A program made the position numbers and the translations under genes. A stretch of DNA of 53,327 nucleotides, from positions 62,001 to 115,327 of the forward strand of contig CAUYUJ010000327.1 in the NCBI GenBank assembly GCA_963575745.1. The letters run 5' to 3'. Below, piece after piece: positions 5,801 to 50,478 of the stretch (its first letter is position 1; every line of letters starts with the position of its first letter). The notes beneath the pieces were generated by a model. That model was not told the origin of the DNA. It made no database searches and saw nothing but the letters and a program-made list of their open reading frames with translations. Origin of the DNA: Prorocentrum cordatum (taxonomy: Eukaryota).

Positions 5801-7932
5801 GCGCGCTCAAACTTGGGGTCGACGCTGGGTTGGGCGTATGTTTTCGGGGAGCTCGGTTTTAAAATCCAAACGAAAGCTACGGCTTTTGCGGGATTCTGGC
5901 ATGCGCCCGCGACGACGCGCGCGCGCGTGAACTTCTCATTTGTTGCAAAGCATTCCCAAAAACTTCTAATTTGTGATAAACGAGTGCGCGCGCATAATCT
6001 TGGATCTGTCGCACCAGATGCGGGGGGAGGGGGGGGGGCGATGCCGGCCTGCCTGGGATGGTGCGAATCATATTTTGGATGGACGATGGGGCAGAATCAC
6101 ATGTAAATTACAATACGCGAAGGGGGGGGCTAATTCTGGGGATGGGGGGTATATCCTACCCCCCGCCCACCCGCAACGTTGTTTGCACGACCCATGCGGC
6201 GGCGATTGCGATGACTGCTCGGCTCTGGCTGGCGCATCGCCGCTGCCGCGCTAGCGCGCACGCCCGCGCGCGCAGCGGCCAGGTAGTTTGGCGCGACCGA
6301 CGCGTCCGCGGTGGCGCTGACCGCTGGGCACTTCCCAGCGGGTACTTCAGCGCGCGCCGGCGACTTGGGCGGGCGCGGTATCATGGCAACGTCGACGACG
6401 GTAAACGCGATGATGGTGGTAGCGATGCTGGCGACGGTGATGACAGCGACGACGGTGAAGCCAGTGACGACACCGATGCTGATCACGTCGACGGCGATGA
6501 CGGCGTCCTCGCGTCGTTGGTGGATATTTTGGAAGGAGCTCGACATGCGCGCCCGGCCGACGCGCGAGGGTGGCCCGCATGGTGTTGTTTGACATGGATC
6601 GCGCCCCCCTTCCCGCCCCCCTACACACAGACACACACACACACACACAAAACGCGCGCACGGGCATTCGAAATGTCTCGACATGCGGCGCGGGAGGTCC
6701 GCCGGGCCGAGTTTGCGAAATTCCGAAGGAGCGCGACCGCAGGCATTTTTGAGAAGTGGTGATGTAAAACCATGTGTTTTAGATGTGGTTTCGGAACATT
6801 CGACATTGACATTGAAACCCATACGGAACCCAAGGTTGTCGAAGGATTTATGCATGCGCGCGCGACGACGCGCGCGTGCGCACGTCGTCCCACATGTTGC
6901 AATATATTATTGCGACAACGCGCCCACAGGGGCTTTCGAGTGATTTCGACATGCGCGCTCGAGAGGCCCGTCCGGTAGAATGTTATGGTATTGCTGAAAT
7001 ACTTGTGGCTTCTTCGTTTGCAAAAGCCCGAGCGCAAGCTTGTTTGGAAAACCCGTGTTGCGACACTTTGTTGTTGCGGAAATTCGTGGCCCTCGATGTT
7101 GACACCCTTACGAAACCTACGATTCTCAAAGGATTCCCGCACGCTCTCGCGACTACGCGCGCGTGTGCACTTCGTTCCATGTGTTTTACAATGTTCTAAA
7201 TAGAATGCTGAGTCTTGATAAACGAGCCGCGCGCATAGTATTGTTCACACGGGGTGAGGGGGTTACCAGATTTGCTGGGAGAAGACGGTTTTATATTTAG
7301 GACGGACGATGGGGCGCAATCGCCTGCACATTGCAATACGCAAAAAGGGGGACCGTAAATTTCGGGGGGGGGGGGAGATCCGAATATTTTTTTCTAGAAA
7401 GGACAATATATGCAGTGAGTGCAGTCTTTGTGGTGCCACCCACGCGTTGCAATCTACGTCGTGCCATCCAGGACGGCGACGAGGCGGCGACGGGGCGGCG
7501 ACGGCGGCCACATGGCCGCCGGACCGACGAAGGGCGGCGACGAGGCGGCGACGCGGCGGCAACGGGGGCCACACAGCCGCCAGACCGAAGACACTGCCCA
7601 GACGACGGGAGGCGGCGGGGCGACGGGGAGGCGGCGGCCGCCACAGACTCCAGCAAAGAGAAGGACGTGAGATGAGATCGGGCCTGGAATCACGCGAACC
7701 GAACTTCGGACATCCGCAGGTGGAGAAGCACAGAGAGACAGAGAGAAGGGGTGGAAGGCGAGAGAGGGGCCCAAGGGGGCTCCATGACAAGTCGAGCGAG
7801 CGAGCGCTCGCCACCTCAAGCGGAAGGCGCACCAGCTCGGTGTCACACGCTTTTGGCCCGAAAGGCTTGCGATTTGTTTATGGTTCGCGTGTCGTGGACT
7901 TGAGTCATCTGGATTTCCAGGGGCTTGGAGCC

Positions 7933-7953
7933 ATGAGTGTCTCCACAGGGGCG
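7933..7953 (+). CDS. Possible first micro-exon of the carrier gene (MSVSTGA)
   Basis: gccATG context and GCG|GTGCC donor at 7954; a CAG acceptor lies directly before ATG 8083. The join is in frame, and the unspliced frame stops at 8067. Confidence 0.35.
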
Positions 7954-8082
7954 GTGCCAAAATTCCCAGGGATCACGCATGCGTTCTGTCCACTCATCCG
8001 CCATAGCTTTGCTCGAGACGCACAGAATGGGGCTGGCGACGCCTTAGCACCAATCTTATTTTTTTGATTTGTACAACTCCAG

Positions 8083-8392
8083 ATGGAAACGTGGAAGGCA
8101 TGCAAGCCTTTCGTTACAGGCAGCATTGCAGGGTGCATGGCGAGTACAGTCATCCAGCCGGTGGACATGGTGAAAGTCAGAATCCAGGTGGGCGCCGCAG
8201 ACGGGGGCAGCACGAGCCCACTTGAGATCGCAAGGGGCATGATCAAAAAGGAGGGACCGATGTCGTTCTACAGGGGGCTCAGCGCTGGCTACTTGCGGCA
8301 GGTTCTCTACACGGGCTCGCGACTCGGCTTGTACGATACGTTCACTGGCATGGCGAGCGTGCCGGGGGAGCCTCTCCCGTTCTGGAAGTCAA
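8083..8392 (+). CDS. DTC: Mitochondrial dicarboxylate/tricarboxylate (2-oxoglutarate/malate-type) carrier, exon with carrier repeat 1
   Basis: KPFVTGSIAGCMASTVIQPVDMVKVRIQ has the SLC25 signature Px[DE]xx[KR]x[RK]; FYRGLSAGYLRQVLYTGSRLGLYD is typical of DTC/OGC carriers. The 3' boundary is ambiguous within ~8391-8397. Confidence 0.92.
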
Positions 8393-8704
8393 CCATTCCG
8401 TGCTGACTTTTGGGGGCACCTTTGTGAAGGCGGCCCCTGGCAGCTGCGGGAGGCAGACCTTGGACCCGAAGCGTCTTGACGGGAGCGCACCACTGCACGT
8501 GCTGAGCCTCGGCACAGCGCAAACCAGGCACCCGAAGTGCAGGTGCTGTTTGGAACGCTCCTGCCCAGCAGAGTCCGCTCCGAGGCCAGGACTCATGCAA
8601 GAAGTCTGCTACACGGGGAGCCAAGCTCCCAGGACCCTAAACGGCTGTGGAATTGGATACACACACGCATATCTATATATATATATATATATATAGATAT
8701 ATAT

Positions 8705-10420
8705 CCTGGGAGGGCATGGGAGGACCGGGGTTTCCCAGACCGCTCCCCGAGCACCCCAGAGCGGCCCTGGAGCTCCCAGACTGCCCCAGAGAGCTCCCAG
8801 AAGCCCTCGGGGACTTCGACGAGCACCTTCAAGACAGCCCAGATAGCCCCAACGTGGCCCAAGATGGGTTCGAGACCGCAATTACACAGCCCAAGAGGCC
8901 TCCAAGAGGCCTCAAGAGAGCTCCGAGAAGCATCACGAGAGAGCCCGAAGAGGCCCTGATCATTGATTTTCATTTGTTTTTTAACATGTTTTTCGGTTGC
9001 TCGCGTTCTTGACCTTCCGACGCTCCAGGACGGTCGATGACGCCCCAAGACCGCCCCAAGACCGCCGAAGAGGCCCCCAAAAGAGCCCCGAGACGGCACC
9101 AGGGAGTTTGAAATGATTTCCCAGGAGGAGCCCCACATGGCCCAAGAGAGCCCCAGGACAGGCCCAAGCTGAGCCACAGAGCGCGAGCGGGAGGCGCAAA
9201 GACGCTCCGCCCAACACGGCAAATACACAGCCCAAGAGGCCTCCAAGAGGCTCTCAAGAGAGCTCCGAGAAGTATCCCGAGAGAGCCCGAAGAGGCCCTG
9301 ATCGTTGATTTTCATATGTTTTTAACTGTGTGTTCGGTTTCTCACGTTTTCGACCTTCCCACGCTCCAAGACGGCCGACGACGCCCCCAGGACCTCCCCA
9401 GGACTCCCCACGGCCCAAGAGGCTTCCAAGGGGCCGCATGAGAGCTCCGAGAGGCGTCCCGAGAGAGCCCGAAGAGGCCCTAATCATTGATTTCCATTTG
9501 TTTTTTTTGTACGTTTTCGCTTTCTCGCGTTCTCGACCTTCCAACGCTCCAAGACGGCCGAAGACGCCCCGAAGATCGCCCCAAGACTGCCGGAGAGGCC
9601 CTAGAAAGAGCCCCAAGACGGCCCCATGGAGTTCGAAAATTGCCCAGGAGGAGCCCCGCATGGCCCAAGAGAGCCCCAGGACAGGCCCAAGCTGAGCCAC
9701 AGAGCGCGAGCGGGAGGCGCAAAGGCGCTCCAAGACGGCCCAGATGGGCCCAACACTGCAAATACAGGCTTCCAAGAGGCCGCAAGAGAGCTCCGAGAGG
9801 CGTCCCGAGAGAGCCCGAAGAGGCCCACATCCCTGACGGTCGTTTTTGTTTCTATGTTTTCGCTGTCTCGCGTTCTCGACCGTTCAACGCTCCAAGACGG
9901 CCGAAGACACCCCGAAGATCGCCCCAAGACCGCCGAAGAGGCCCCAGAAAGAGCCCCAAGACGGCGCAGGACAGCGTGAAGACTGCCCAAGAGCAGCCCA
10001 AGACTGCCGAAAAAAGCCCCAGGACAGGCCCAAGCTGGGCCACAGAGCGGCAGCGGGAGGCCCCAAGGCGCTCCAGGACGGCCGAGATGGTTCCAACGTG
10101 GCCCAAGAGGAGCTCCAGACGGCAAAAACGTAGCTCCAAAAGGCTTCCAAGATGGCCCAAGAGAGCTCCGAGAGACGTCCCGAGAGAACCCAAAGAGGCC
10201 CACATCATTGATGTGCATTGGTTTGTTCGATGTGTTACGCTTTCTCGCGTTCTGGAGCTTCCAATGCTCGAAGACGGCCGCAGACGCTTTCAGGACCGCC
10301 CCAAGACCACCGAAGAGGCACCCAAAAGAGCCCCAAGGCGGCCCAAGAGAGCCCCAGGACAGGCCCAAGCTGGGCCACAGTGCGGGAGCGGGAGGCCCCA
10401 GAGCGCTCCGAGACGGCCTA
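8705..10420 (+). repeat. Purine-rich 'ccaaga/gagagcccc' interspersed repeat cluster nested in the carrier intron
   Basis: Several diverged copies of 'gagagctccgagaggcgtcccgagagagcccgaagaggccc'; related sequence is inverted at ~11140-11640 and ~49640-49880. Confidence 0.7.
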
Positions 10421-10921
10421 GATGTCCCGGGCCTCCCCCCTTCGTCCCTCCTTCCCTCCCGCCCCCTCCCCTTGCCTTCATTTCCTCCTCTCTCCTCTTC
10501 CTTCCCTCACCCCTCAGCTTTCGTGGTCCTCCCTCCTCTCCTGGGACGGCTCCGCCAGAGCGCCAGACAAGCCCCGCCAGAGCGAGCGGGGCATCGCTAT
10601 ACCCTATCAGTTCACAAGTTGCTTTCTCCCTCCACCTCCTCAAAGGCGGCCCCGGCAAAGCGAGAGCGTTCTGACTACGCGTTTCTTTGCGTCGATGGCA
10701 TGGGTCCGAGAACACTGGAAATCGTCGCTGTGACCGCACTGGGGCTTACAGCGGCACTCGTGCCTCACCTGCGACTAGAATCTAAGCGCGCGCGTAGCGC
10801 GCGCGTGCTTCTAGTGTGTATATGTACACACCCACAAGACTGCATTGGCACTTCGCGCCATGCACCTTGGTCCTTGAAGTTTGGCATGCAGGTGGAACGG
10901 ACGGAAGGTCAAACAGACAGT

Positions 10922-10956
<35 letters not shown>

Positions 10957-11768
10957 ATAACTCCTTGTTGCGTTTTCGGGCATCGCCGTTATAATAATGT
11001 TACTCGTTTTCCTTCCTCCATGTTGATGTTTCCTCATTCTCGCGCTACCCTGCGAATTCTTCCCCATCCTCCTCAGCTCTTTTTGCGGAGGCTCCTCCTT
11101 GGAAGGCCTCTGGGGGCATAACGGAAGTTGTTCATGCTTTCTTAAGGCCTTCTGGAGGCCTCCTGGGCATCTTCTGGAGCCCTCTGGGGGCTTCCTCGGG
11201 CCACCCTGCCTCCAACCGCGGTCTCCCTGAACGACCGGGTCACGATTTGAAATGCTTCGGAGGGTGTCTTGGGGCCATCTTGGGCGTCATGGGGCTCTTT
11301 CAGGCCATCTTGAAACCCTGTTGTGCCGTCTTGGGGTTCGCTTGGACTGCCTGGAAGCCCTTTCGGATGGTTTTGGGGCGACTTTCGAGCCTCCCAGGCG
11401 GTACAGGGCATTCCACAAATCATGCAACAACTTTGTGAAATCACTGTTTTTCTGCGTTTTGGAAGCCTCTTGGAGGTCTTCTTTGGGTCGTCTTCTGGCG
11501 CTTGGTGGGTGTCTGAGGTCTCTAGGGGCCCTCGGGGGGCGTTCGGCCGCCCTCCTGACCGATTTGGCCCATTGCCTAGGCCCACCAAAGGCTTCCAGGA
11601 GCTTTGAAACGCTTGGGGGACCTCCTGCAGGGGATCCCAGGGGTTCCCCCGGGCGACGGATCCGGGGAGTCTAGAGGGTCCAGGGGGCCCTGGGTTCGAT
11701 GGGTCCGATTTCGGTGGGGTCCATATATATATAATATATATATATATAGATATGTACAAATACATCCG

Positions 11769-11802
<34 letters not shown>

Positions 11803-12129
11803 TATATACATCTATATTTAGACCTGTACGACCACCCTTCGGGTGATAAGGAGGTTCGGGGGGGGAGAGGAACCAACGTCTCACTCGATCGGTCTCACTA
11901 TCGATCACACTATCGATCTCATTATCGGTCTATCGATCTCGCTATCGGTCTCACTCGATCGATCTCCTTCGATCGATCTCACAATCGATCTCAATCGATC
12001 TACTTCATTCGATCGATCTCACAATCGATCTGGCCATTGATCTCACAATCGCTCTCACTAACGATCGTACTCGCATTAGGTCCCACTATCGATCTCACCA
12101 TGGATATCACAATCGATCTCACAATGAAT

Positions 12130-12636
12130 GTCACCATCATCATCAACATCATCGTCATCAACGTCATCAACACCATCATCATCATCATGATCATCAGCAT
12201 CATCATCATTGGGACACCATCATCATCTCCTCATCACCATCATCATCAACATCATCATCATCAGCAGCATCGTCATCATCGGGACACCATCATCGTCACC
12301 ATCATCATCACCAACATCAACATCATCATCGGGACACCAGCATCATCATCGGAACACCACGATCACCACCACCATCTCATCATCATCATGAACAACATCA
12401 TCAACATCATCATCGCGACACTGTCATCATCCGCAACATCACCATCAACATCATCATCATCATAATCGGGACACCATCATCATCACCAGTATCATCATCA
12501 TCACCATCGGGACACCATCATAATCATCAGCATCAGCATCATCCCTATCCGGACGCCACCATCAAAATTATCGGCATCACGTCATCATCATCCTCATCAT
12601 CACCATCATCATGATCAGGACACCGTTATCGTCATC

Positions 12637-12668
<32 letters not shown>

Positions 12669-12919
12669 CAACAGCATCATCATCAACCTCATCACCATCG
12701 GGACACCATCATCATCATCATCTTCATCATCACCATAATGTCATAATCTCATCATCTCATCATCATCAACATCATCAGAATCATCAATGTCATCACCATC
12801 GGGACACCATCATCATCGCCACCATGGCCATCAGCATCATCATCATCACCATCATCATCCCCATCGGGACACCATCATCGTCACCATCATCATCATCAAC
12901 ATCGTCATCACCGGGACAC

Positions 12920-12950
<31 letters not shown>

Positions 12951-13315
12951 GGAACACCACCATCCTCATCATCATCTCATCATTTTCATGAACAACATCA
13001 TCAACATCATCACCATCGGGACACCATCACCATCATCAGCAACATCTTCATCAACATCAACATCATCGTCGGGACACCAACATCATCGTCACCATCATCA
13101 TAATCACCACCATCATCATCACCGGGGCACCATCATCACAATCATCCGCATCATCATCACCGGGCCACCATCACCAAATTCATCATCATCACCTCATCAT
13201 CATCCTCGCCATCAACACCATCATCATCATCGGGACACCATCATCGTCGTCATCACCATCATCACCATCATCACCGCCGGAACACCATCATCATCCTCAT
13301 CACCATCATTATCAT
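12130..13315. repeat. Degenerate (ATC)n microsatellite with periodic 'cgggacacc' interruptions
   Basis: Directly visible. Confidence 0.9.
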
Positions 13316-13556
13316 ATATATATATATAGAGAGAGCGAGAGAGAGAGAGAGAGACACAGGGAGATAGATAGTTCGGGATCTTTAGAGGCCCTGGGAGCCC
13401 CGATACTATCCCTCTCCACCGTTTCACCGAGATCCAGGAAGGTTGGCCCCCCACGAAGTGGATGTTCACAAACCCAAGCCTCGGATCCCAGATAGCATGA
13501 AGCAGCGCTAGGTAGCAGTGGCAATCTTTGCACGGGCCCCCAAAAAGTCTGCATGG

Positions 13557-13674
13557 CGATCTGTGCGCTGAGCGCGGGCGGCATCGCAGCGGTGGTGGGG
13601 AATCCCGCGGACCTGTCTCTCATCCGCATGCAGTCTGACGCTCTATTACCTGAGGCAGAGCGACGCGGCTACAG
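13557..13674 (+). CDS. DTC: Mitochondrial carrier, middle exon (repeat 2)
   Basis: Manual translation ICALSAGGIAAVVGNPADLSLIRMQSDALLPEAERRGY(R) contains the DTC/OGC motif PADLxLIRMQxD. It ends AG|GC (GC donor at 13675). Too short for the ORF track. Confidence 0.9.
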
Positions 13675-14124
13675 GCACAGCATTCGTTTTGTGTTATGTT
13701 AGTTTGCTTATTCGGCGCACCTTGTTGTTAGCGTCAGGCTTCCATTTGGGCCCAGCTGAGGCCCCATATTCTCTCAGAAGCCGACCGAAGCCTGGCAAAC
13801 CCGTGGCTGCTAAAACGGAGCTCACAGAAATTGTTTTTTCTTCCAAGAATCAGCCCGTTTACTATTTAGTGCCTTGAGCTTGATTCCGGGAATTTGTTTT
13901 TTCATCCGGGAAGACCGTTTTAGCAGCCACGCATTTGCCAGCCCTCGCCCAGCTTCCAATTCTCGAGAGACAAGCCCAGGATGGGAAGCCAAGTGTGGAA
14001 AAATGATGCTGTCGAGGGCTCGGGCGATGGCCTCTGAGACAGGAGGGGTCTGGCTTCTAGGTCCCGGCCCTCGCTTCCAAAAGGGCACACACACACACAC
14101 GTATGTAGCGCTGCATTTAGTAGA

Positions 14125-14318
14125 TCGGGGGCGGTAGAGAGAGGGGTGATGACTAGAAGGGGGGGATACGATTGCGTGGGCCATGATATTTCCTCAGATT
14201 TCATGGCGCCTCTTTGTATTTCATTGCAACCCTGGCCCCCCCCTGGGCCGCGCACATACTGCCGGCCATGATTTGCGCCCCCCCCGCCCCCGGACGCCCC
14301 CCTCTTGGCCGCCCCCGA
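14125..14318. mobile_element. 194-bp MITE in the last carrier intron
   Basis: TIRs tcgggggcggtagagagaggggtg / cgcccccctcttggccgcccccga; related copies at ~25902-26095 and ~35977-36170. Flanked by a 22-bp direct repeat. Confidence 0.8.
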
Positions 14319-14379
14319 ATGTAGCGCTGCATTCAGTAGACAGTCACGCTTCTCACAAACATACTCACGAAGACACCAG

Positions 14380-14839
14380 GCACGTGTTCCACGCGCTGCG
14401 CGTGATCGTGGCGGAGGAGTCGTCGGCGGGCCTCTTCAAGGGAGCCGCCGCTACGGCGACGCGCGCCATGGCCCTCAATTTCGGCATGCTGTCCTTCAGC
14501 TCGAAGGCGAAGGAGCACATCGCAAGCCTGGGATACGCGCCCGGGGGGGGCGCACAGATCTTCGGGGCTGCGGCTGTCGGCGGCTTCTTTGGTGCATTCT
14601 TCTCGCTGCCGTTCGACTTCGTGAAGACGCAGATACAGAAGATGAAGGCAGACCCGGTCACCCAGCAGATGCCCTACAAGGGCCCCGTGGACTGTGTAGT
14701 CAAGACAATGGCTGCTGGTGGGCCGCTTCGGTTTTACGCCGGCTTCCCCACGTATTTCATGCGAACCGCCCCCCTCTCGATGATCACGCTGGTCGCGCAG
14801 GACTTCGTGAGGAATATGTGGGCCAAGGTTGGTCTGTGA
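14380..14839 (+). CDS. DTC: Mitochondrial carrier, last exon (end of repeat 2, repeat 3)
   Basis: CAG acceptor 14377-14379; HVFHALRVIVAEE...RAMALNFGML...LPFDFVKTQIQKMKADP...PYKGPVDC...FYAGFPTYFMRTAP; stop at 14837-14839. The three exons total 888 nt (295 aa + stop). Confidence 0.93.
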
Positions 14840-15540
14840 AGCAGCTGCTCGCGCGCCAGAGAGGCCATGCACAGCAATGGCTGGCCAGTCCAGAACAAAT
14901 CTAGCTCTGGCCGTGCTCTGCTACTTCGCATAGGCTTGCACTGCTCCCGCATTCAGTATTTCAGCAGCTCGGATGCTCTGCTTACGGGCAGTACCTGAAA
15001 CTGCAAGCACAATGTGCGTGGAGCGCATTCCTCTGTGTTCGCACCTCAGGGTGCTTGAACTGTTGCCGCGCCCGATCTCAAGGTGCCTGATTTGCTTGTG
15101 TCCGCACGCGGCCTTCGTGTGAGCTCGCCAACCGGAATGCGTGGAGCGCATCTCTCTATGTTCGCATCTCGAGTGATTGAGCTGCTTGCGGCGCGTGGCA
15201 CCAGAGATAAAAATCGATGCACACCCACATCGCCTCACACTGGCTTACACCGCACTTCATCGTGTGGCGTTGCATCCATTGTGATGCAGAATGGCTATCT
15301 CGAAAACCACCCCTGCGGTGCAATGAGGGGGCCTCGGGCCACTTCGTGACATGTCCTCTGCCGACCCTGGTCGACCAGAACAGTTTTGAGTTGGCATTGG
15401 GTGGTGCGATGGGTTTTGAGTGACAGTTTTGGTGCAGCTCACTCTTCGCACACAATTGCGCGACCATCCCCTCTATTCTGAAAGTTCCCCATTCGCCGCA
15501 GGGAACCACTGGACTTGCAAACTAACCTCCACTTAAACGC

Positions 15541-15562
15541 ACTGAAGGCATTCTGGCTCGTG
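15541..15562 (+). other. Relict dinoflagellate spliced leader (DinoSL)
   Basis: actgaaggcattctggctcgtg matches DCCGTAGCCATTTTGGCTCAAG at 16/22 positions without gaps and ends 57 nt before the ATG. Confidence 0.65.
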
Positions 15563-15618
15563 ATTGCAACTGTGCATCTTCTTGCGCGCGCACGCGACCC
15601 TCAGCCTGTACGACCATC

Positions 15619-16773
15619 ATGTTGGTGCACAAGGCGATGGGTTCTGCGGTGGCTCGTCGATGCGGCCGCGCAGTCGCAAGAGGTCGTTTCTTCTTCTGCA
15701 GCGAGAGCGGGACCAGCGTTGCGGAGCACTCTCGTGATGATGAGACGAAGCGATTGCGACTCATGGTGGCAGTCGGTGGAAATGCTTTGATTCGCCGCGG
15801 CGAGCGATTGACCATCGAAAACCAGCTCAAGGCCGCTCGAGGTGATGCTGCGCCAGCGATCAAGGGCCTCATGGAGAAGCATGAGGTTGTGCTGACACAT
15901 GGGAACGGTCCGCAAGTGGGCGAACTGGCGCTCGAGCGGTCGGCTGCGACTTTCGACGTGCTCGGTGCCGAGTCGCAGGGGCAGATCGGATACATCTTCA
16001 GCCAGGCCTTCGCGAGCATCAACGTGATAGCCGTGCCCTTGTTGACTCAGGTCATCGTCGATCCTGCGGACCCGGCCTTCTCAAATCCTACGAAGTTTGT
16101 CGGACCGGTTTACGGCGCTAAGGAAGCCGAGGCGTTACGACAGGCATTGGGATGGACCGTGAAGCCGGATGGGGAATATTATCGCCGCGTAGTGCCGTCG
16201 CCGCCCCCGCTGAAGATCCTGCAGATCGATGCTGTGAAGACACTGCTGAAGACGCAGACGCCAAATGGGCCATTGCCAATCGTGTGTGGTGGTGGGGGCG
16301 TTCCCGTGACGCGCATGGGCAGTGCGTTTGCAAACATACCCTCGGGTGCTTTTGAGGGTTTGGAGGCAGTCATCGACAAAGACCATTGCGCTGCCTTGGC
16401 GTCCCTTTCGCTCGACGCCGACGCCCTGATCATCATGACCGATGGCGGCGGCATCTGGGAGAATTTCGGGAAGCCACATGCGCGTGAGATGAAGATGGCA
16501 TCAGCCTCGTACCTCAGAAGCGTGCAAGCAGGTGCCAAATTTCCTGGCTCAATGGGCCCGAAGATCGAGGCTGCCTTGTCGTTTGTGGAGCAGTCGCCCA
16601 AGTCAGACGCATGGGCTGCCATCGGCGACCTGAAAGACGCTCAGGAAATATACGGGAACACAGAAGGCACCATGATCAAGAAGGACGTTCCAGGCGACGT
16701 TATCTGGCATGAGCCGAACAGGAAGCGGGAGGCCAGGGGGCAGAAGGTGAGCCGTGTTCCCAGGCACCCGTGA
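15619..16773 (+). CDS. arcC: Carbamate kinase, intronless, with N-terminal mitochondrial-type presequence
   Basis: Motifs AVGGNAL, THGNGPQVG, GAESQGQIGY, DPADPAFSNPTKFVGP, YRRVVPSP, CGGGGVPV, EAVIDKD, GSMGPKIEAA. The N-terminal extension is Arg-rich and lacks acidic residues up to RGRFFFCS. Confidence 0.95.
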   Translation: MLVHKAMGSAVARRCGRAVARGRFFFCSESGTSVAEHSRDDETKRLRLMVAVGGNALIRRGERLTIENQLKAARGDAAPAIKGLMEKHEVVLTHGNGPQVGELALERSAATFDVLGAESQGQIGYIFSQAFASINVIAVPLLTQVIVDPADPAFSNPTKFVGPVYGAKEAEALRQALGWTVKPDGEYYRRVVPSPPPLKILQIDAVKTLLKTQTPNGPLPIVCGGGGVPVTRMGSAFANIPSGAFEGLEAVIDKDHCAALASLSLDADALIIMTDGGGIWENFGKPHAREMKMASASYLRSVQAGAKFPGSMGPKIEAALSFVEQSPKSDAWAAIGDLKDAQEIYGNTEGTMIKKDVPGDVIWHEPNRKREARGQKVSRVPRHP

Positions 16774-19128: not shown

Positions 19129-20053
19129 GGTCAACCATGGCCAGGGCCATGATATCTCGCCAGCTTTCACGCCCCCCCCCCTCCTCCTCCTCCCCCTCCT
19201 CCTCCTCCTCCTCCTCCTCCTCCTCCTCCTCCTCCTCCTCTTCTTCCAACGCGTCCCATGCCCCCTCCCCCCCCTCCCCCGTCGTCCCCGCACATGCCTC
19301 GGGCCACGATTTGCGAGCACTCCTCGTGGGCGCTCTCGAGCCTGGGCGCCCCGGACACATTCCCGAAGGACACAGCGATACAGTGGGGGCGCCGGTCAAG
19401 GCATGAGCCCGTGAGGCTTCAGACCCTGGGGGGGGGGCCCCGATCTCCTGAGGGCGGCAATGATATCCATGGCCACTCCGCGACTGGAGTTCCACCAACT
19501 TCCTGACCCTGGATTCCTTCCCTGACATCCGGATCCGACGTTGCGAAACACATTCAACATCGCAAGAATCACAACCGAAGCCCTGGACCCCATTTTTCTG
19601 CTGCATTTGTCGAGCCGGATCGATCCGTGAGGGTCCCGGGGCCCGAAATACGGGGCGAAGTAGAGGAGACGTATGAAAGCGAGGAAGGGGAGCACGATAC
19701 CCCGCCATTTCGACGGCTCGCATTTGGCATCCAGGGCTCAGGAGGAACATTTTCCAGCATATATATATATATATATATATATGTATCCTGGGCCACGTTG
19801 GAGCTAGGTTGGGAGAGTATCGGGGCGTCTAGAGCAGGAGTCTGAACCCCTCAAGATTCGTACAGGGCGAGGAGGACAGCCGAGCATCCCACACGCCTCG
19901 GCACCCATGATTTTTATGCAAGGGGCCGCCTTGAAGGAGACGTGGGTGTCGTTCGTATGGCCCTGCAGGCTGCACGTGAAACGCGCTTACAGGTAGCGGC
20001 CCATTTCAGGAGGACACGGCGTAGGTGCACTGCATTGAGTCCGCGGCGTTGGG

Positions 20054-20088
20054 ATCATCATCAGCAGCAGCACCATGATAATCATCAG

Positions 20089-20139
<51 letters not shown>

Positions 20140-20358
20140 TACCATCACAATCATTACATTCATCACCAGCATTGTCATCGTCATCGTCATCATCAGCATC
20201 ATCAGCATCACCATCATCATCATCATCATCACCTCTCTTCATCACCATCGTCATCCTCATTGTCGTCGCCATCATCATCATCATTTTCTTTGTCGCCATC
20301 GTCATCATCAACATCATTGTCGTTACCATCACAATCATTACACTCATCCTCATCAGCG

Positions 20359-20389
<31 letters not shown>

Positions 20390-22285
20390 TATGATCATCT
20401 TCATCATAATCGTCATCGTCATCGTCAGCATCGTCGTCGTCGTCGTCGTCGCGATCATCATCACAGTCATCATCATCAGCAGCATCGTCATTCTACTCGT
20501 TACCGTCATTGTCACCATCATCATCATTCATCACCAGCATCATCAGCATCACCAGCATCATCATCATCTTCATCCTCATCCTCATCGTCATCATCATCGT
20601 CGTCGTCTCCATCATCATCATCATCATCATCTGCAGCATTATCACCATTACAATCACAATCATTGCACTCATCATCATCTTCATCGTGAGCATCATCATA
20701 TACATAATTTGCATCATTGTCATCGTCATCATCATCGTCGTCGTTGTCGTCGCCATCATCATCAGCATCATCACCATCATCACCATCATTATTATGGACA
20801 GCATCATCATTATCATCACCATCATTGCACTTCTTATCATCGTCGTCATCATCATCATAATCATCAGCATCGCCCTTGCAATCATCATCAGCATCAGCAT
20901 CATCATCGTATTCGCCATCGTCATCGTCCTCATCATCATCCTCGTCGCCGACATCGTCATCATCGACATCATCACCATCATCGTCAGCATAATCATCATT
21001 TTAATGTCCATCATCATCTCCACTATCGGTTGCGTCATGATCATCAGCATCGTCGTCGTCGCCATCATCATCATCATCATCATCATCATCAGCATCATCA
21101 TTACCATCACAATCATAACATTCATCACCATCATCGTCGTCATCAGCTTCACCGTCATCATCATAATCGTCATCATCACCATCACCATCGCTGTTGTCGC
21201 CATCATCATGATCATCATTATCATTGCCGTCGTCACTACCATCCTCATCATCATCATCATCATCGGCATCATCAGTACCACCACAATCCTTTCACTAATC
21301 ACCGTCACCATCATCATCGTCACCCTCATCGCCATCATCATCGTCGCCGTCGTCATCATCGTCATCGTCTTCGTCATCATCAGCATCGTTAGCATCATCG
21401 TCATTTTTATCATCAGCATCAGCATCAGCATCATCATATCATCGTCGTTATCATCATCGTCATCATCATCATCATCGTCATCATCATTATCGTCGTCGTC
21501 GCCATATTCGTCAGCAGCAGCAGCATCATTAAAATCACAGTGATCATACTAATCCCCATCATCGTCATCATCATCATCACCATCAATATCATCAGCATCA
21601 TCGTCATGATCACCATTGTCGTTGTCGCCATCATCATCAGCATCAGCACAATCATCTGCATCATCTTTATCACCATCGCAATCATCACACTCATCACACT
21701 CATCATCACCATCAGCAGCGTCATGGTCGTCATCATCATCATCATGATGATCGTCATCGTCATCGTCATCATCGTCGTCGTCGTCGCCATCATCTTTTTC
21801 ATCATCATCATCATCAGCATCATCATCATCATTATCATCATCATCATCATCATCGCTGTCCTCGCCATTACCATCATTATCATTGTCGTCGTCATTATCA
21901 TCCTCATCATCATCGGCATCATCAGTACCACCACAATCCTTTCACTAATCACCGTCATCATCATCATCATCATCATCGTAACCCTCATCGCCATCATCAT
22001 CGTCGCCGTCGTCATCATCGTCATCGTCTTCGTCATCATCAGCATCGTTAGCATCATCGTCATGTTCATGATCATCATCAGCATCATCATCGTCGTCATC
22101 GTCATCATCACCATCAATATCATCAGCATCATCGTCATGATCATCATCGTCGTTGTCGCCATCATCGTCAGCAGCATCATCATTACAATCACAGTCATCA
22201 CACGTATCCCCATCATCGTCATCATCATCCTCGCCATCAATATCTTCAGCATCATCGTCATGAACATCATCATCGTCGTCGTCGC

Positions 22286-27088: not shown

Positions 27089-27984
27089 ATGACGACGACA
27101 TCGGGTGCGGCCCCTTCCAGATTTTTGCGTGCTGTGACGTACAACCCAATGCATCTGTGTGGAATGCGAGGGGAAGAGGTCTCATCGGAGTTCGGGAACG
27201 TGGGGGCGGTCCTATTGCAGGGAACAGGTCGGAGAAAGCTGGCGGACGAACCTCATCGTGTGTTCCGCCACTCTCGTCATTATGAATTATCGTTTGGTTT
27301 CTCGAGGTCTTCGAACAAATCATGTGGAACGAGTATCATGCTGCACAGTAAGGTCTTCCCGCAGCGCTGCATTAGACGTATTTTCTGCCCGCCCGTGGAT
27401 TTGGAGGGGAGGTGTGGCGCCGTGCGCCTGAAGTCTGGATCCCTTGATGTGTTGTTCGTGACTCTGTATTTTCCAGTATACTCGAGCATGCGGGCGGGCC
27501 GTGATGAGCAGAAACGGAAGGTACACAAGATGCTGGCCTGGCTACGAAATTTGTTATTATCCACGGGGGGACGGTGCACTCCCATTGTTGGCATGGACCT
27601 GAACGACGGGTTGGGCAGAGCTCGTGAGTTCATCTTCGAGGGCGAGGCTATTCCTGTTGAGGAGGAGGTGGGGGTGAATGCTTGTATCGGTGAATTCGAC
27701 GCGGACCTTGAGGGCGTCGCGGGCAGTGCTCTGCGTCAGACCATGGGGGATACACACATGTGCGCAATCAACACATTTTACCCGCTGGGACCTACATTCC
27801 ACGGGGTGGGCGACTCTTCGTCTCGGATCGACTTCCTGGTGATCCCTCAGCAGCTGCGCCTACACGTGGAGAAATGCACGATTCTGCACGGAGCTGGTCG
27901 ACGACTTCAACCGATTTCGACGCTGGACGATCGAGAGCACAGACCCATTTATCTGCAAGTGAAGTATGACTTTCAGGCTCAGTT
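27089..27984 (+). CDS. APE/EEP-family endonuclease domain of the retrotransposon polyprotein
   Basis: Ordered EEP motifs VTYNP, LLQGT, SCGTSIML, TLYFP, VGMDLND, MCAINTF, PTF, SRIDFL, EHRPI. Frameshifts into the RT frame near 27985. Confidence 0.85.
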
Positions 27985-30327
27985 GTGGACAGAACGCCGC
28001 CATGGGATTTCGATAGGATTATGCGCTCTGTCTCTCAGGGCACCGCGTGCACGGATGCGATCGAGGCCATACACTCGGCAGTCACGTCGATCCCCGAGGA
28101 CGAATGGATCAGCCTGTGTGCCCGAGCTACACCTGATGAAGTATGGAACTCGATCATGAGCGTGATGACTACGACGGCGATGGACACTTTCTCAAAGAAA
28201 TCCGACCTGGAGGCAGAAAAATCAGTATTGGAAAGGGAGCGCTCAGAATTGTTGCAAGCACGGAAGAAGTTCAAGGGCATACACATTGGGAGTCTGGGCA
28301 GTTCTGGTATTCTTAGTACGTATGAGGTGGCCCGTCTGGAGCAACGTTTGGAACTGGAACTTCAGCTGGCACGAACGACTTTTCGGATTCGTCGCCTCTC
28401 GAAGCTGATCAATAAAGAACGAGAGGCATCACTGACCTTGGAGCTGAACAACGCATGGAAGTCGCACGACCACTACAACGTCCAGAGGCTTATCAGACGA
28501 CTATCTAGGCGTGGGGCAGGTCCTCGGCACAGGAAGTATTTTGCATTGAAGTCGGAAAATAGTGAAGCTCATGAGATCTCCGCTTTTCTGTGCCGACCTG
28601 CGGTCGAGGGTGGCCTCGGTGCTGCGACATGCGACTTGCAAAAGGAATTGTTGGATCGTTTTGAAAGACCTCACTCCGACGGTTGGGATGTCTCCGAGGA
28701 GGTTCGCTACAACGCCATGCAGATGGAGAACATAGCGGACGCTCGTACCGATTTGATGGGCATCGTGCGGCAGCTGAGGCGTGCTCCAAAAAGACGGGCA
28801 ACTCCGTTTTGGTCTTTACCTTCGGAGCTCTGGCTTCTGCTCCTGGATCCCGCTTGCTGGGAGCAATTTCGTGGTGGTGGAGTGGGGGCGGATCTTCTTC
28901 CTGCGACTTCGACGGCTTTTACGGAGCGCTTTTTAGATGTCTTAGCTTGCTTTCGGCGGACAGCGTCCACTCCTTTGATCTTTGATGTATCCTCCTGCTG
29001 TGGTTTGGACAAGCATAACGGAAAGTTGGGAGCTGAGAGTCAACGCTGGATTCATTTATTCTGCCCGCTGGGCAAGGCGTGGAATTCGCACTTATGGGTC
29101 AGAGCACGTCGGCATCGGGATGCACTACCATATGTATGTCATGGGTTTGCAAAAAAGCGCAGACGGGAAGATGCGATTTTAACGCAGTGCTGCACGTCCT
29201 GGCGTTTGCAGAGGCAGGGCTACTCGCACGTGATCGTCAACGAGGATGCCACCAACGCGTTCTCCAGCGTATCGCGAGACATCATGCTGGACACACTGCC
29301 CCTGTTGTATCTTGAAGAGGACGTCAGGTTTCAACATCAGCGCATCATTCAGAGTGCGTGCCAGATTATCACATCGGGCGAAACCATCAGCTTGCGCCCC
29401 AGCACGGGCGACTTCATGGGCCATCCAAATGCTGCACGGGGCTTTCCATACTACTACCAGAAGGGGTTGGAGCCGTTCTTTGAAATTCGACAGCGGACGA
29501 CCTCCTGTTCGATGGCGTTGGTCACCGAGCCGAACGGGGTCTCCACGGACGTGGGCTTGTCATTGTTCGCGGACGATATCACGAAGCATGTTATCCCTGG
29601 GCCAGGTCCACCTCCGCAGCGTATGGGAGGCGAAGCTCAGCATCTGCTGGCGCTCGCGCGTGTCAGCAGCGATCACTTACAGCGGGCCTTGGCCCAGATC
29701 GGAGTCGCCCTCAACCCTGACAAAAGAGTCTCCCTCGTAAAGATCGTCGGTCCTGGATCTCTCGGGCAACGTCGTCTGATCTTCAGCGGGGCCGTGAAAA
29801 CCAAAGGCAAGGTGGGGAGGTTCATGAGAGTCTTGGGCGGGTGGCTGACCACGAGTGGATCCCTCCAGGTTGAAAAAGTGAAACGCATTCAAGCGGGACG
29901 GGCGGGGCTCGGTAAGATCTCCATGTTTTTGAGGCACCCTGCAGTCTTGAGCGTGAAGCGCATGGCGGTGATCGCGTTCGTTCAGTCGGCCCTGCTCTCG
30001 GGGATGGAGGCACTTATTCCAGATAAGAGTTTTTGTGCTGCAGCTGATCAGGTTTTACAGCAGGCGACGAGGAGGGGAATGGGCATCTTGGGCCTCGAGG
30101 AACATGGCGAGCAGGAGCTGCGCCGCTGGTCGGCGGATCGCATGTGCGGTCATTGGCGAATCCTTCCGTGCGAGCAGGAACTTCGTGTCCGTCGGTTGCG
30201 TTGGCATCAGAGTTGGAGTCGGTACCCTGAGGCACACCGACAAGCGAGGGCAAGTGTTTTTGGGCGCTTGGGCGACGAGGAGGTGATCACGTCTTCCTGG
30301 ACTCGGACGGAAAATGCGAATCCCTGA
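27985..30327 (+). CDS. Non-LTR reverse transcriptase domain
   Basis: HGFAKKRRREDAI, VNEDATNAFSSV, GDFMGHPNA, catalytic LFADDI (~29566-29577), GVALNPDK, MRVLGGWL. The TGA at 30325-30327 is in frame with the downstream zinc-finger region. Confidence 0.9.
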   Translation: MDRTPPWDFDRIMRSVSQGTACTDAIEAIHSAVTSIPEDEWISLCARATPDEVWNSIMSVMTTTAMDTFSKKSDLEAEKSVLERERSELLQARKKFKGIHIGSLGSSGILSTYEVARLEQRLELELQLARTTFRIRRLSKLINKEREASLTLELNNAWKSHDHYNVQRLIRRLSRRGAGPRHRKYFALKSENSEAHEISAFLCRPAVEGGLGAATCDLQKELLDRFERPHSDGWDVSEEVRYNAMQMENIADARTDLMGIVRQLRRAPKRRATPFWSLPSELWLLLLDPACWEQFRGGGVGADLLPATSTAFTERFLDVLACFRRTASTPLIFDVSSCCGLDKHNGKLGAESQRWIHLFCPLGKAWNSHLWVRARRHRDALPYVCHGFAKKRRREDAILTQCCTSWRLQRQGYSHVIVNEDATNAFSSVSRDIMLDTLPLLYLEEDVRFQHQRIIQSACQIITSGETISLRPSTGDFMGHPNAARGFPYYYQKGLEPFFEIRQRTTSCSMALVTEPNGVSTDVGLSLFADDITKHVIPGPGPPPQRMGGEAQHLLALARVSSDHLQRALAQIGVALNPDKRVSLVKIVGPGSLGQRRLIFSGAVKTKGKVGRFMRVLGGWLTTSGSLQVEKVKRIQAGRAGLGKISMFLRHPAVLSVKRMAVIAFVQSALLSGMEALIPDKSFCAAADQVLQQATRRGMGILGLEEHGEQELRRWSADRMCGHWRILPCEQELRVRRLRWHQSWSRYPEAHRQARASVFGRLGDEEVITSSWTRTENANP

Positions 30328-31791: not shown

Positions 31792-33274
31792 TTGTGGGCA
31801 GGGCTGGTCAGAACGCGCCACCCGCGGGGTGTGCTCAGAGTCGCCACTGGCCCTTCGTCCTGTCCAGGGGGCTTGGGCTGGAGTGCGCTCGCTCTCGCCC
31901 ACCTTATGCGGCAGGGCGGGGGTCAGGTTTTGCTGCCTCGAAGGCCCGCGCCGCTCGTCGCGTATTCCATACTACTTCTGAGTTCACGGTGTGACTTGGT
32001 CTGACGGGTGGACTACTCTATGGGCGTCTACATACCTGACCAATTTTGATTTCGTGAACTCGTTCAATGTGAACACGTTCATAGTCCAAATCTTCTTCTT
32101 CGACGGGGTCGTCGCCACCCCCTGAGCCCGATGAGCCTCGCCTCGCCGTACTTCGAGGCACCGTGCCGCCACCGTCCTCCTTCTGGTCTTCTCTCCGTGC
32201 AGTTTCCGTTCAGAGGATCGGTGGCTTTTTTGATTTTGTGGGCCCACTCCCCCCTCCGTTGCTGTGCTGCTTGCCCGCTCTCCCTCTGCTTTGTCCTCGC
32301 CCCCTCCTTCGTTCTTGCTCGTCCTCTCTGTCGCCTCTCTTGCCCCGTCGTTCCTCTCGCGTCCGTCGTGTGCCTGCTGGGGAGTGGGCCCGAATTCGGG
32401 AGGGCTCGGGCGCTCCAGGGGCCATCCTGGGGCCCGCCGTCCTGGAGGTACGGCTCCTGCGGAGCCCGAGAGGTCGCTCGCCTCCCGCTCGCATGGGTTT
32501 CACTGTTTGCGATCGGTCTCGCACTCGTTCGAATGCTGGGCTGCACGGTGCGCTTTACCCTGACCTCGAGTGTTATCTCGTTCGTTCGACTGTCAGAGGT
32601 TCTTTGTTGTAGATTATTGAATCAGCAGCAGCAGGCATGAGACTTCAGACATGCAGCGCAAGGCCGAGTCTTTTTCTTCTTCTTCTTCCTCCTCCTCCTC
32701 CTCCTCCTGGTAGTCCTCCCCCTCCCCTCCTCCTCCTCCTCCTCCTCTTCCTGGTCGCCCTCGTTCTCGTCCTCGTCGTCTTGCTCGTCCTCCTCCTCCT
32801 GGTGTTCTCTCCTCCTCCTCCTCCTCCTCCTCCTGCTCCTCCTCCTCCTCCTCCTCCCTCCTCCTCCTCCTCCTCCTCCTGGTGGTCCTCGTTCTCCTCC
32901 TCCTGGTGCTCTCCCCCCCCTCCTCTCCTCTCCTCCTCCTCTCCTCCTCCTCCTCCTCCTCCTCCTCCTCCCCTCCTCCTCTCCTCCTCTTCCTCCTCCT
33001 CATCCTCCTCCTCCTCCTCCTCCTCTCCTCCTCCTCCTCCTCCTCCTCCTCCTCCTCCTCCTGGTAGTCCTCCCCCTCACCTCCTCCTCCTCCTCCTCCT
33101 CTCCTCCCTGGTCGTCCTCCTCCTCCTGGTCGTCCTCCTCCTCCTGCTCGTCCTCCTCCTCCTCCTGCTCGTCCTTCTTCTCCTGCTCCTCCTGCTCCTC
33201 GTCCTGCTCCTGCTCGTCCTCGTCCTCCTGGTCTTGCTCGTCCTCCTCCTCGTCGTGCTCTTGCCCCTGCTGAA

Positions 33275-41750: not shown

Positions 41751-41929
41751 GAGGAGGGAAAAAAACACACAGACACAATTAATCGTCGATTCCCCAGAAA
41801 ATATTGGAAAATATGGGAAGTGGGGGGGAAGACAAAAACCCAGAAAATATAGGAAAATATGGGGAATTATTTTATTTGTGTGTATTTAATTGTGTGTTTG
41901 TGGGCCCCTTCATACATGGGGATGGGCAG

Positions 41930-50189: not shown

Positions 50190-50285
50190 CATCCTACTAC
50201 TAAGATTTGTTATTTCTACAGTACACGACGACGGCGGCTACGATCATTGCTATGACTACTACTACTACTACTACTACCACTACTA

Positions 50286-50339
<54 letters not shown>

Positions 50340-50444: not shown

Positions 50445-50478
<34 letters not shown>

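What the first reader, a model, noticed from the sequence alone, without database searches (positions are those of the whole stretch)
8393..13556. 5.2-kb transposon-shaped intron with no canonical splice sites in an intact carrier gene
Seen: the exons flanking this insert are free of stops and frameshifts. Removing exactly 5164 nt yields PLPFWKS(T/A)ICALSAGG, gap-free against the plant DTC segment as I recall it (PLPLYQKALCGLTAGA). No register of that length has GT/GC/GA...AG ends; the only AG-ending register starts with GG (8384-13547) and replaces WKS with FCM. The ends are inverted repeats (ccgtgctgacttttgggggc / gcccccaaaaagtctgcatgg) flanked by ccatt and cgatc, which differ only at synonymous positions of Thr-Ile, like an aged 5-bp target duplication. 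The insert looks old (decayed TIRs, many nested repeats), yet the gene is not decayed. Known: introners occur in dinoflagellates, and IR-bounded non-canonical introns are described in Amoebophrya and euglenids. Inference: a structure-guided, non-canonical intron coexisting with a normal GC-AG intron in the same gene. Alternatives: a canonical-like splice adding residues (GC 8402/AG 13547 inserts 6 aa) or a dead paralog.
Basis: partly seen in the sequence, partly recalled or inferred. Interest (0 to 1): 0.85.

Follow-up and report, generated by a model that had tools for sequence, protein, structure and literature searches.

The report
Hairpin-ended non-canonical intron in dinoflagellate
A 5.2-kb transposon-like insert with inverted-repeat ends sits inside a working dinoflagellate mitochondrial carrier gene and is removed exactly from the mRNA, although its borders look nothing like normal splice sites.

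Summary
The gene is a complete three-repeat mitochondrial carrier of a dinoflagellate. It has exons at 8083-8394, 13559-13674 and 14380-14839. Transcript contigs from 4 of 4 runs laid, from 4 studies, match the window with 0 mismatches. All four join 8394 to 13559, skipping exactly 5164 nt. Only three registers give that mRNA: AT..CG, TT..GA and TC..AT. None is GT/GC/GA..AG. The second intron (13675-14379) fits GC..AG. A helix of 31 predicted pairs (-43.9 kcal/mol) starts 1-3 nt inside the 5' border and ends 2-4 nt before the 3' border. The interior is satellites and microsatellites, and the three long interior ORFs tested have no Pfam domain. Best reading (0.75): an old terminal-inverted-repeat (TIR) transposon that became a helix-guided, non-canonical intron. 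This type is described in parasitic Amoebophrya, here in a free-living-type, high-GC dinoflagellate and several times longer. Main rival (0.15): the mRNA comes from an identical insert-free copy elsewhere. I could not test this because no genome or DNA reads were available. The mechanism of removal is inferred, not shown.

The parts
8012..8394 (+). Exon 1. The mRNA contigs begin at 8012-8060, the ATG is at 8083, and the last exon base is 8394 (or 8395/8396).
   Evidence: The translation is 100% identical to P0116.
8395..13558 (+). Non-canonical intron of 5164 nt. Ends are AT..CG; the registers shifted by +1 (TT..GA) and +2 (TC..AT) give the same mRNA.
   Evidence: The joint appears in 4 of 4 runs, one contig each, with 0 mismatches. 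Register table.
8398..8434 (+). 5' arm of the terminal inverted repeat. The core is 8398-8417 (CCGTGCTGACTTTTGGGGGC); weaker pairing extends to 8434.
13521..13556 (+). 3' arm of the terminal inverted repeat. The core is 13536-13556 (GCCCCCAAAAAGTCTGCATGG).
8393..8397 (+). Left copy of the possible 5-nt target duplication (CCATT). AT at 8395-8396 is the exact microhomology.
   Evidence: It matches the right copy at 3 of 5 positions.
13557..13561 (+). Right copy of the possible 5-nt target duplication (CGATC). AT at 13559-13560 is the exact microhomology.
   Evidence: The relative transcript L001 reads ACG ATC at this site.
8827..10409 (.). About five copies of a tandem unit of roughly 343 nt inside the intron.
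   Evidence: period 343, 84% matches over 9420-10097. families D5-D9 and D11.
11879..13315 (.). 12-14-nt tandem repeats (11879-12138) followed by a degenerate (TCA)n array of about 1.2 kb (12131-13315).
13559..13674 (+). Exon 2.
13675..14379 (+). Intron 2, 705 nt. The register is GC..AG, followed by G, with a 7-nt repeat CAGGCAC across both borders.
   Evidence: One search shows a joint 13671|14377 that may slide by 7, which includes the GC..AG register.
14380..15207 (+). Exon 3. The CDS runs to the stop at 14837-14839. The 3' UTR runs to about 15103-15207, where the contigs end.

Best explanation
An old, non-autonomous transposon with terminal inverted repeats inserted into the coding exon of a mitochondrial 2-oxoglutarate/dicarboxylate-type carrier gene. 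The site lies in the short loop between carrier repeats 1 and 2. The insert now behaves as an intron.

In the pre-mRNA, the two ends of the insert pair over about 31 base pairs. This leaves the two exon ends only 5 unpaired nucleotides apart at the foot of the helix. The RNA is cut and rejoined there, within a shared AT, so the reading frame is restored exactly. No GT/GC/GA..AG dinucleotides are involved.

Shown: precise removal from the mRNA, non-canonical borders, the terminal helix and its position, and an intact, selected and expressed gene.

Inferred: that the helix, rather than a border consensus, defines the cut sites; that removal happens at the RNA level from this very locus; and the transposon origin.

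The enzyme is unknown. I lean slightly (about 55:45) towards a spliceosome that tolerates any border when the ends are held together, as proposed for Amoebophrya, over an endonuclease-ligase route. The ordinary dinoflagellate spliceosome is presumably what removes the GC-AG intron 2 of the same transcript.
For: RNA evidence.
- 4 of 4 runs laid (4 studies) each hold one contig of 1233-1318 nt. X8 is on record as polyA RNA-seq. X1, X9 and X13 are of organism A, and their RNA status is a guess by the tool.
- Each contig has 0 other letters and 0 gaps, and each joins 8394|13559 and 13671|14377.
- In X1, X9 and X13 no contig lies inside the intron. Depth in the 8283-8543 bin is 43% of exon depth, as expected if cover stops at 8394.
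- The joined CDS equals P0116 exactly.

Protein evidence.
- All 15 listed members (of 19) of the 90% cluster read WKSTICAL with no insertion.
- So do all 11 more distant dinoflagellate homologues aligned.
- dN/dS is 0.095 against L001.

Helix evidence.
- The helix has 31 pairs and -43.9 kcal/mol, reached by 18 of 3000 random pairs and 0 of 3000 shuffles.
- It starts exactly at 8398:13556, next to the joint.
- The sense-strand RNA helix (-43.9) is stronger than the antisense one (-36.0) because 4 of its pairs are G-U.

Age and content of the insert.
- The non-matching letters of the putative 5-nt duplication are either intronic or synonymous.
- Two mismatches in 10 nt, against 0 in about 1300 nt of exon and UTR, fit an old insertion in a live gene better than a young insertion in a dead copy.
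- There is no Pfam hit in the three long ORFs of the insert.

Precedent. Amoebophrya introner elements have 8-20-nt inverted repeats, 3-5-nt direct repeats and non-canonical borders (PMC7789003; passages and section 11 read).
Against: - No DNA reads and no genome could be searched. An identical insert-free copy is therefore not excluded.
- The X9 contig carries 26 nt upstream of 8028 that are absent from the window. This could mark a second locus, or an upstream exon beyond the window.
- All RNA evidence is assembled contigs, which drop rare forms. Unspliced or alternatively spliced RNA may exist unseen.
- There is only one example. The TIR motif occurs nowhere else in the 53-kb window, so family membership is unknown.
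- The direct repeat is exact for only 2 nt.
- The G-U argument is biased, because the folding program chose those pairs.
- None of the three registers has a first/last nucleotide pair known to support spliceosomal catalysis (established knowledge, recalled), so the enzyme is open.
Confidence: 0.75

Rival explanations
1. Dead copy. The window holds a carrier gene copy killed by a transposon, and the perfect mRNA comes from an identical, uninterrupted paralogue or allele elsewhere in a duplicate-rich dinoflagellate genome.
For: Dinoflagellate genomes hold many duplicated genes (PMC10666404, passages read). No genome or DNA run could be checked. The X9 contig has a different 26-nt 5' end upstream of 8028 that is not in the window. 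An empty site reading ACC-AT-CTG is trivially what an uninterrupted copy would show.
Against: It needs a copy identical over 1233-1318 nt, UTRs included (0 mismatches in 4 of 4 runs). So the insertion must be very young. Yet the inverted repeats differ at 2 positions plus 1 indel, and the only perfect target duplication would be 2 nt (AT), which fits no transposon superfamily I can recall. A 5-nt duplication would need 2 mutations in 10 nt against 0 in about 1300 nt. No 95-99% similar full-length paralogue transcript was laid, only 45-nt pieces of other carriers (table 8). There is no second copy in the window.
Confidence: 0.15
2. DNA-level excision. The element is cut out precisely from the DNA in some or all vegetative nuclei, in the manner of a ciliate internal eliminated sequence, and the mRNA is made from the repaired gene.
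For: The insert has inverted-repeat ends, and one copy of a 2-nt repeat is kept at the joint. This geometry would also fit transposase-type precise excision.
Against: No such process is known in dinoflagellates (recalled; not searched in the papers). The assembly holds the filled form. The helix is stronger as sense RNA than as antisense, through G-U pairs. Intron 2 shows that the contigs are spliced RNA anyway.
Confidence: 0.03
3. Library artefact. Reverse transcriptase jumped across the foot of the hairpin at the AT microhomology, so the true mRNA keeps the insert.
For: A short direct repeat next to a strong hairpin is the classic setting for template switching (established knowledge, recalled). 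The helix and the AT repeat are there.
Against: The joined form is the only form assembled in 4 of 4 runs from 4 studies, at the same depth as the rest of the transcript (18.5 to 137.8). No contig of the organism covers the intron. An mRNA that kept the insert would stop after 107 codons, in a gene that is under purifying selection.
Confidence: 0.02
4. Canonical-like splice. The intron uses GC at 8402 and AG at 13547, giving a carrier with a 6-residue insertion.
For: GC donors are common in dinoflagellates (PMC11453091, passages read).
Against: No contig in any of the 4 runs shows that joint. None of the 15 cluster members or the 11 homologues aligned has an insertion there. Contigs can hide a rare isoform, so a minor form is not excluded.
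Confidence: 0.02

Closest known systems
Amoebophrya non-canonical introns / introner elements (Farhat et al. 2021, PMC7789003; passages and section 11 read)
   Same: The borders are RNA-validated and are not GT-AG. Inverted repeats of 8-20 nt at the two intron ends form a hairpin that brings the exon ends together. A short direct repeat overlaps the borders. There is no internal transposase. These introns coexist with canonical ones, and the host is a dinoflagellate.
   Different: The host here is not a syndinian parasite. Its carrier is closest to Polarella and to other free-living or photosynthetic dinoflagellate transcripts, while Amoebophrya A120 is only 63% identical. The insert is 5164 nt, whereas that study analysed introns of 40-1000 nt. 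The exact direct repeat is only 2 nt. Family copies were not found or testable. The IR motif differs from the TTA.. and TAT.. motifs reported there.
Introner-like elements of Symbiodinium and Polarella (Roy et al., preprint 10.1101/2020.10.14.339549, passages read), and 'introner elements' counted in free-living dinoflagellate genomes (PMC10666404, main-text passages and supplement passages read)
   Same: These are introns derived from TIR transposons, with target duplications, in free-living or core dinoflagellates. Inverted plus direct repeats are reported in 2.4% of introns of one high-GC species. Intron 2 of this gene fits this class, with AGGC inside a 7-nt border repeat.
   Different: All those introns use GT/GC/GA..AG taken from the duplication or from the element ends. 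The gene-model pipelines were set to accept only such sites. Intron 1 here has none.
Euglenid nonconventional introns (as reviewed in PMC11282704, passages read)
   Same: Non-canonical borders, terminal pairing that brings the ends together, TSD-like repeats at the junctions, lengths up to several kb, and coexistence with conventional introns in one gene.
   Different: An unrelated lineage. The CAG/CTG pairing at +4..+6 / -8..-6 is absent in all three registers. Excision as a circle is untested here.
Mitochondrial carrier family, 2-oxoglutarate/dicarboxylate-tricarboxylate type (the host gene)
   Same: Three Mito_carr repeats in 295 aa. Relatives are named SLC25A11 oxoglutarate transporter or DTC by their sources.
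   Different: Nothing unusual in the protein. Substrate was not tested.

Membership tests
Amoebophrya-type introner element (non-canonical, IR/DR-bounded intron) | The intron is validated by RNA and its borders are not GT-AG (nor GC/GA-AG). | tested here: met
   4 of 4 runs; registers AT..CG, TT..GA, TC..AT.
Amoebophrya-type introner element (non-canonical, IR/DR-bounded intron) | An inverted repeat of 8-20 nt between the 5' and 3' ends of the same intron, able to form a hairpin. | tested here: met
   A 20/21-nt core at 8398-8417 / 13536-13556, with 31 predicted pairs and -43.9 kcal/mol.
Amoebophrya-type introner element (non-canonical, IR/DR-bounded intron) | A direct repeat of 3-5 nt overlapping the exon/intron borders. 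| tested here: inconclusive
   The exact repeat is only AT (2 nt; 'both = 2'). The 5-mers CCATT and CGATC match at 3 of 5 positions, about 10% by chance (own arithmetic).
Amoebophrya-type introner element (non-canonical, IR/DR-bounded intron) | Repeated in the genome as a family with shared IR motifs. | not testable with these tools
   No genome is held. The motif occurs only at the two ends in the window. The 2 matches in viral contigs are at chance level by my estimate.
Amoebophrya-type introner element (non-canonical, IR/DR-bounded intron) | No transposase inside (non-autonomous). | tested here: met
   No Pfam hit in the 3 long interior ORFs tested. The interior is tandem and simple repeats.
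Core-dinoflagellate introner-like elements (Roy et al.) | GH..AG splice sites recruited from the target duplication or the element ends. | tested here: not met
   Intron 1 has no such register. Intron 2 does (GC..AG).
Euglenid nonconventional introns | Pairing of CAG at +4..+6 with CTG at -8..-6. | tested here: not met
   The ends printed read, in the three registers, CCG/GCA, CGT/CAT and GTG/ATG.
Euglenid nonconventional introns | Excised as a full-length circular RNA. | not testable with these tools
   This needs raw reads or RNase R data.
U12-type AT-AC introns | AT..AC ends with the ATATCC donor consensus (consensus recalled). | tested here: not met
   The register that starts with AT ends with CG, and the donor reads ATTCCG.
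tRNA-type bulge-helix-bulge introns | The cut sites lie in two 3-nt bulges separated by a 4-bp helix (recalled). | tested here: not met
   The cofold shows the cuts in unpaired nucleotides at the foot of a long intron-intron helix, with no adjacent exon-intron helix.
Mitochondrial carrier family (host gene) | Three tandem Mito_carr repeats in about 300 aa. | tested here: met
   P0116 is the joined CDS. It has 3 matched stretches, E = 3.8e-49.

The most novel reading that the evidence does not exclude
Free-living (core) dinoflagellates, and not only parasitic Amoebophrya, possess a hairpin-guided way of removing introns that ignores GT/GC/GA..AG. It can excise multi-kilobase TIR transposons from coding exons. 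Such introns would be invisible in current dinoflagellate gene models, because the pipelines accept only GT/GC/GA-AG. The pathway would then date to before the split of Syndiniales and core dinoflagellates, and would help explain how these genomes tolerate massive transposon load inside genes.
Probability: 0.45. Interest if true: 0.8.

Novelty: new member of a known kind. Interest (0 to 1): 0.62.

Why it matters
If removal happens at the RNA level from this locus, it is direct evidence that non-GY-AG introns bounded by inverted repeats exist outside Amoebophrya, in a free-living-type dinoflagellate, and at a size of 5.2 kb.

I searched the held library five times. For core dinoflagellates I found only GT/GC/GA-AG introns described. 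The genome papers I read set their mappers and gene predictors to those sites only. Such introns would therefore be missed or mis-modelled. No source-named (NCBI-type) protein was among the 15 listed members (of 19) of this gene's 90% cluster, so I saw no genome-annotation model of it.

It would give a concrete, well-expressed, single-gene test case for asking how border-independent splicing works: lariat or circle, spliceosome or not. One gene carrying both intron types is a convenient internal control.

Tried and rejected
- Whole-genome search for further TIR copies and for an empty site: no genome is held.
- Earlier notes of this scan, by place, words and sequence: nothing.
- Metagenome scan with P0116: of 119 relatives, 80 loci were kept. 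Nearly all are contigs of about 1-1.6 kb that carry the uninterrupted ORF. The best is 92% identical and none is identical. No locus showed a split match that would mark genomic DNA with an intron, so the scan says nothing on empty or filled sites.
- TIR motif in viral contigs: 2 matches, which I estimate to be chance, not followed.
- The 26-nt loose 5' end of the X9 contig: not in the window.
- Looking for further non-canonical introns in other genes of the window. The only other clear gene is a single ORF (AA_kinase). The large ORF 27970-30324 has no relatives in the protein search, so no transcript-derived junctions could be read.
- Rfam on 7500-15300: no family.
- Pfam on three long ORFs inside the insert: none.
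- Rejected readings: U12 AT-AC, euglenid CAG/CTG motif, and bulge-helix-bulge (see membership test).
- Two-step removal through GC 8402 / AG 13547, followed by removal of the remaining 18 nt. Rejected as too short for a second splice, and no such intermediate was seen in contigs.
- Parts of the intron without RNA cover in X8, apart from two 18-24-nt low-depth pieces, tell nothing by themselves.
- Searches failed on a one-base frame slip of mine and were corrected.
Full report
**What is there.**
Window 8012-15207 (+ strand) holds one gene for a mitochondrial carrier. The three open frames each hit Pfam Mito_carr. A protein search with exon 1 gave 115 hits among 297 candidates. The named top hits are dinoflagellate. 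The best named one is Polarella glacialis at 79%; Amoebophrya A120 is at 63%. Some hits are named oxoglutarate transporter or DTC by their sources. The organism is therefore a dinoflagellate. The window has about 59% G+C in most 2-kb bins.

**The expected protein has no room for an insertion.**
- In an alignment with 11 dinoflagellate homologues, every one runs straight from ...PFWK-x-x-x-CAL... with no extra residues at the place of the insert.
- The 90% cluster of the best hit has 19 members, of which 15 were listed.
- All 15 read WKSTICAL.
- Three of them (P0116, P0122, P0129), all from transcript-like contigs, are 100% identical to the window's exons.

**RNA evidence.**
One search for sequencing runs with exon 3 and the 3' UTR listed 22 runs. 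Twenty hold the stretch, and they come from 6 studies. I laid four runs from four studies on 7500-15300. X8 is on record as polyA RNA-seq of a marine metatranscriptome. X1, X9 and X13 are of 'organism A', and the tool only guesses that they are RNA.

- Each of the 4 runs has exactly one long contig (1233-1318 nt) on the gene.
- Each contig has 0 other letters and 0 gaps, at depths of 18.5, 137.8, 62.6 and 20.9.
- All four show the same two joints.
  - 8394|13559 skips 5164 nt, with ends AT..CG, and may slide by 2.
  - 13671|14377 skips 705 nt and may slide by 7.
- The second joint includes the GC..AG register 13675-14379, followed by G.
- No contig of X1, X9 or X13 lies inside the 5.2-kb insert.

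In a script, the exons joined at these places give 295 codons plus a stop, identical to P0116. P0116 has three Mito_carr repeats.

**The borders.**
Only three registers reproduce the mRNA: 8395-13558 (AT..CG), 8396-13559 (TT..GA) and 8397-13560 (TC..AT). None of the 14 registers of that length tabulated (shifts -6 to +7) has GT, GC or GA with AG. It is therefore 2-4 nt too far left. A rare isoform cannot be excluded from contigs.

**The ends pair.**
- The arms are 8398-8417 and 13536-13556, differing at two positions and one indel.
- A degenerate motif from them occurs only at these two places in the window, against 0.04 expected.
- As RNA, the first and last 45 nt form 31 pairs (27 Watson-Crick, 4 G-U) at -43.9 kcal/mol.
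- That energy is reached by 18 of 3000 random pairs of windows 5164 nt apart. This repeat-rich window gives some strong chance pairs.
- It is reached by 0 of 3000 shuffles.
- A two-strand fold with 40 nt of exon on either side puts the first pair exactly at 8398:13556. In every register, 5 nucleotides in all lie unpaired between the helix and the two cuts.
- The antisense version is weaker (-36.0), because the G-U pairs become A-C. This is a weak hint that pairing matters in the sense RNA, and it is biased by the way the pairs were found.
- The ends of intron 2 pair no better than chance: -13.6 kcal/mol, reached by 2230 of 3000 random pairs.

**The possible target duplication.**
CCATT (8393-8397) and CGATC (13557-13561) flank the arms. 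They match at only 3 of 5 positions, which by my own arithmetic has about a 10% chance. Only AT is exact. The nearest relative transcript (L001, 92% protein identity) reads ACG ATC at this site, like the right-hand copy. If a 5-nt duplication was made, the letters that have since changed are one synonymous exon base and one intron base. This fits an old insertion but does not prove one.

**The interior.**
- About five copies of a 343-nt tandem unit lie at 8827-10409.
- (AT)n tracts are present.
- 12-14-nt repeats lie at 11879-12138.
- A degenerate (TCA)n of about 1.2 kb lies at 12131-13315.
- Three long ORFs inside have no Pfam domain, and Rfam finds nothing.
- The only similarity of the interior to the rest of the window is the 12-nt repeat at 763-1000, with 3 hits outside the intron.
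- There is no second copy of the carrier gene in the window.

**Selection.**
Against L001 the CDS differs at 106 of 885 sites: 24, 8 and 74 by codon position. This gives dS 0.48, dN 0.046 and dN/dS 0.095. The gene lineage is under purifying selection. The window copy equals the expressed mRNA.

**Most likely explanation (0.75).**
A non-autonomous TIR transposon inserted in the exon long ago and survives as an intron, because its paired ends let the cell cut it out exactly. The precise removal, the non-canonical borders and the geometry are shown. Guidance by the helix, the RNA level of the event at this very locus, and the machinery are inferred.

**Main rival (0.15).**
An identical, uninterrupted copy elsewhere makes the mRNA, and this copy is dead.
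- In its favour: no genome is held, no DNA run was laid, and the X9 contig has a 26-nt 5' end that is not in the window.
- Against it: the insertion would have to be younger than a duplication that left 0 differences in about 1.3 kb. Yet the arms are imperfect, and a perfect duplication would be only 2 nt. No near-identical paralogue transcript was laid.

**Minor rivals.**
- DNA-level excision is not excluded, but has no support.

**Comparison with what is known.**
- Amoebophrya A25 and A120 have more than 60% non-canonical introns. Of these, 11-30% carry 8-20-nt inverted repeats and 3-5-nt direct repeats at the borders, and were proposed to form hairpins that join the exon ends (PMC7789003; passages and section 11 read). 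The present intron fits that description, except for the short exact direct repeat, the unknown copy number and its length. That study analysed introns of 40-1000 nt.
- In Symbiodinium and Polarella, transposon-made introns all use GH..AG sites taken from the duplication or the element (preprint 10.1101/2020.10.14.339549, passages read).
- A genome paper on a high-GC free-living species counted inverted-plus-direct-repeat 'introner elements' in 2.4% of annotated introns. Its mappers and predictors were set for GT/GC/GA-AG only (PMC10666404; main-text passages, supplement passages).
- Other genome papers and a review use 'non-canonical' for GC/GA donors only.
- Euglenid nonconventional introns work in a similar way. 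Their CAG/CTG motif is absent here, and the lineage is unrelated (review PMC11282704, passages read).
- Five full-text searches found no report of inverted-repeat-bounded, non-GY-AG introns in a free-living dinoflagellate. The library lacks most subscription journals, including the final Current Biology version of the Roy et al. paper.

**Verdict.**
It is a new member of a known kind (Amoebophrya-type hairpin-ended non-canonical intron), in a new host group and at a new size. One untested loophole remains, the insert-free copy. The mechanism is unknown.

Noticed in passing
window 13672-13678 and 14377-14383: Intron 2 (GC..AG) has the same 7 nt, CAGGCAC, across both borders ('both = 7'). This contains AGGC, the kind of target duplication from which Polarella introner-like elements draw both splice sites. 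Both introns of this gene may therefore be transposon-made.
   Followed up: partly
window 13777-13818 / 13915-13956, and 14125-14146 / 14297-14318: Two nested inverted-repeat pairs inside intron 2: 42 nt at 83% complementary, 96 nt apart, and 22 nt at 82%, 150 nt apart. They look like small MITE-type insertions.
   Followed up: no
window 8028 (5' UTR of the carrier gene): The X9 contig carries 26 nt upstream of 8028 that occur nowhere in the window. The X1 contig follows the window up to 8012. This could be an alternative upstream exon beyond the window, a second locus, or a contig-end chimera. It is not the dinoflagellate spliced leader as quoted in PMC12584245.
   Followed up: partly
window 15526-16770 (+): A single 415-codon open frame with an amino-acid kinase domain (PF00696, E = 4.5e-14; carbamate-kinase-like by my reading). 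It lies 0.7 kb downstream on the same strand as the carrier gene.
   Followed up: no
window 27970-31788 (+): An open frame of 1272 codons broken by a single in-frame TGA at 30325-30327. There is no Pfam domain apart from a sub-threshold C2H2 finger, and the first 785 residues have no relatives in the protein search.
   Followed up: partly
window 33274-33762 and 34647-35168; 41152-41421 and 41500-41886: Pairs of nearly identical open frames, about 1.37 kb and 0.35 kb apart. They point to tandem repeats with long units.
   Followed up: no
window 20001-22000 and 50001-52000: Low-GC bins (0.44 and 0.39) with strongly negative GC skew (-0.52, -0.53), like the (TCA)n part of the intron (bin 12001-14000: 0.48, -0.37). 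The frames at 19846-20394 are His/Ser-rich in the same way. Similar degenerate trinucleotide arrays seem to recur in the window.
   Followed up: no
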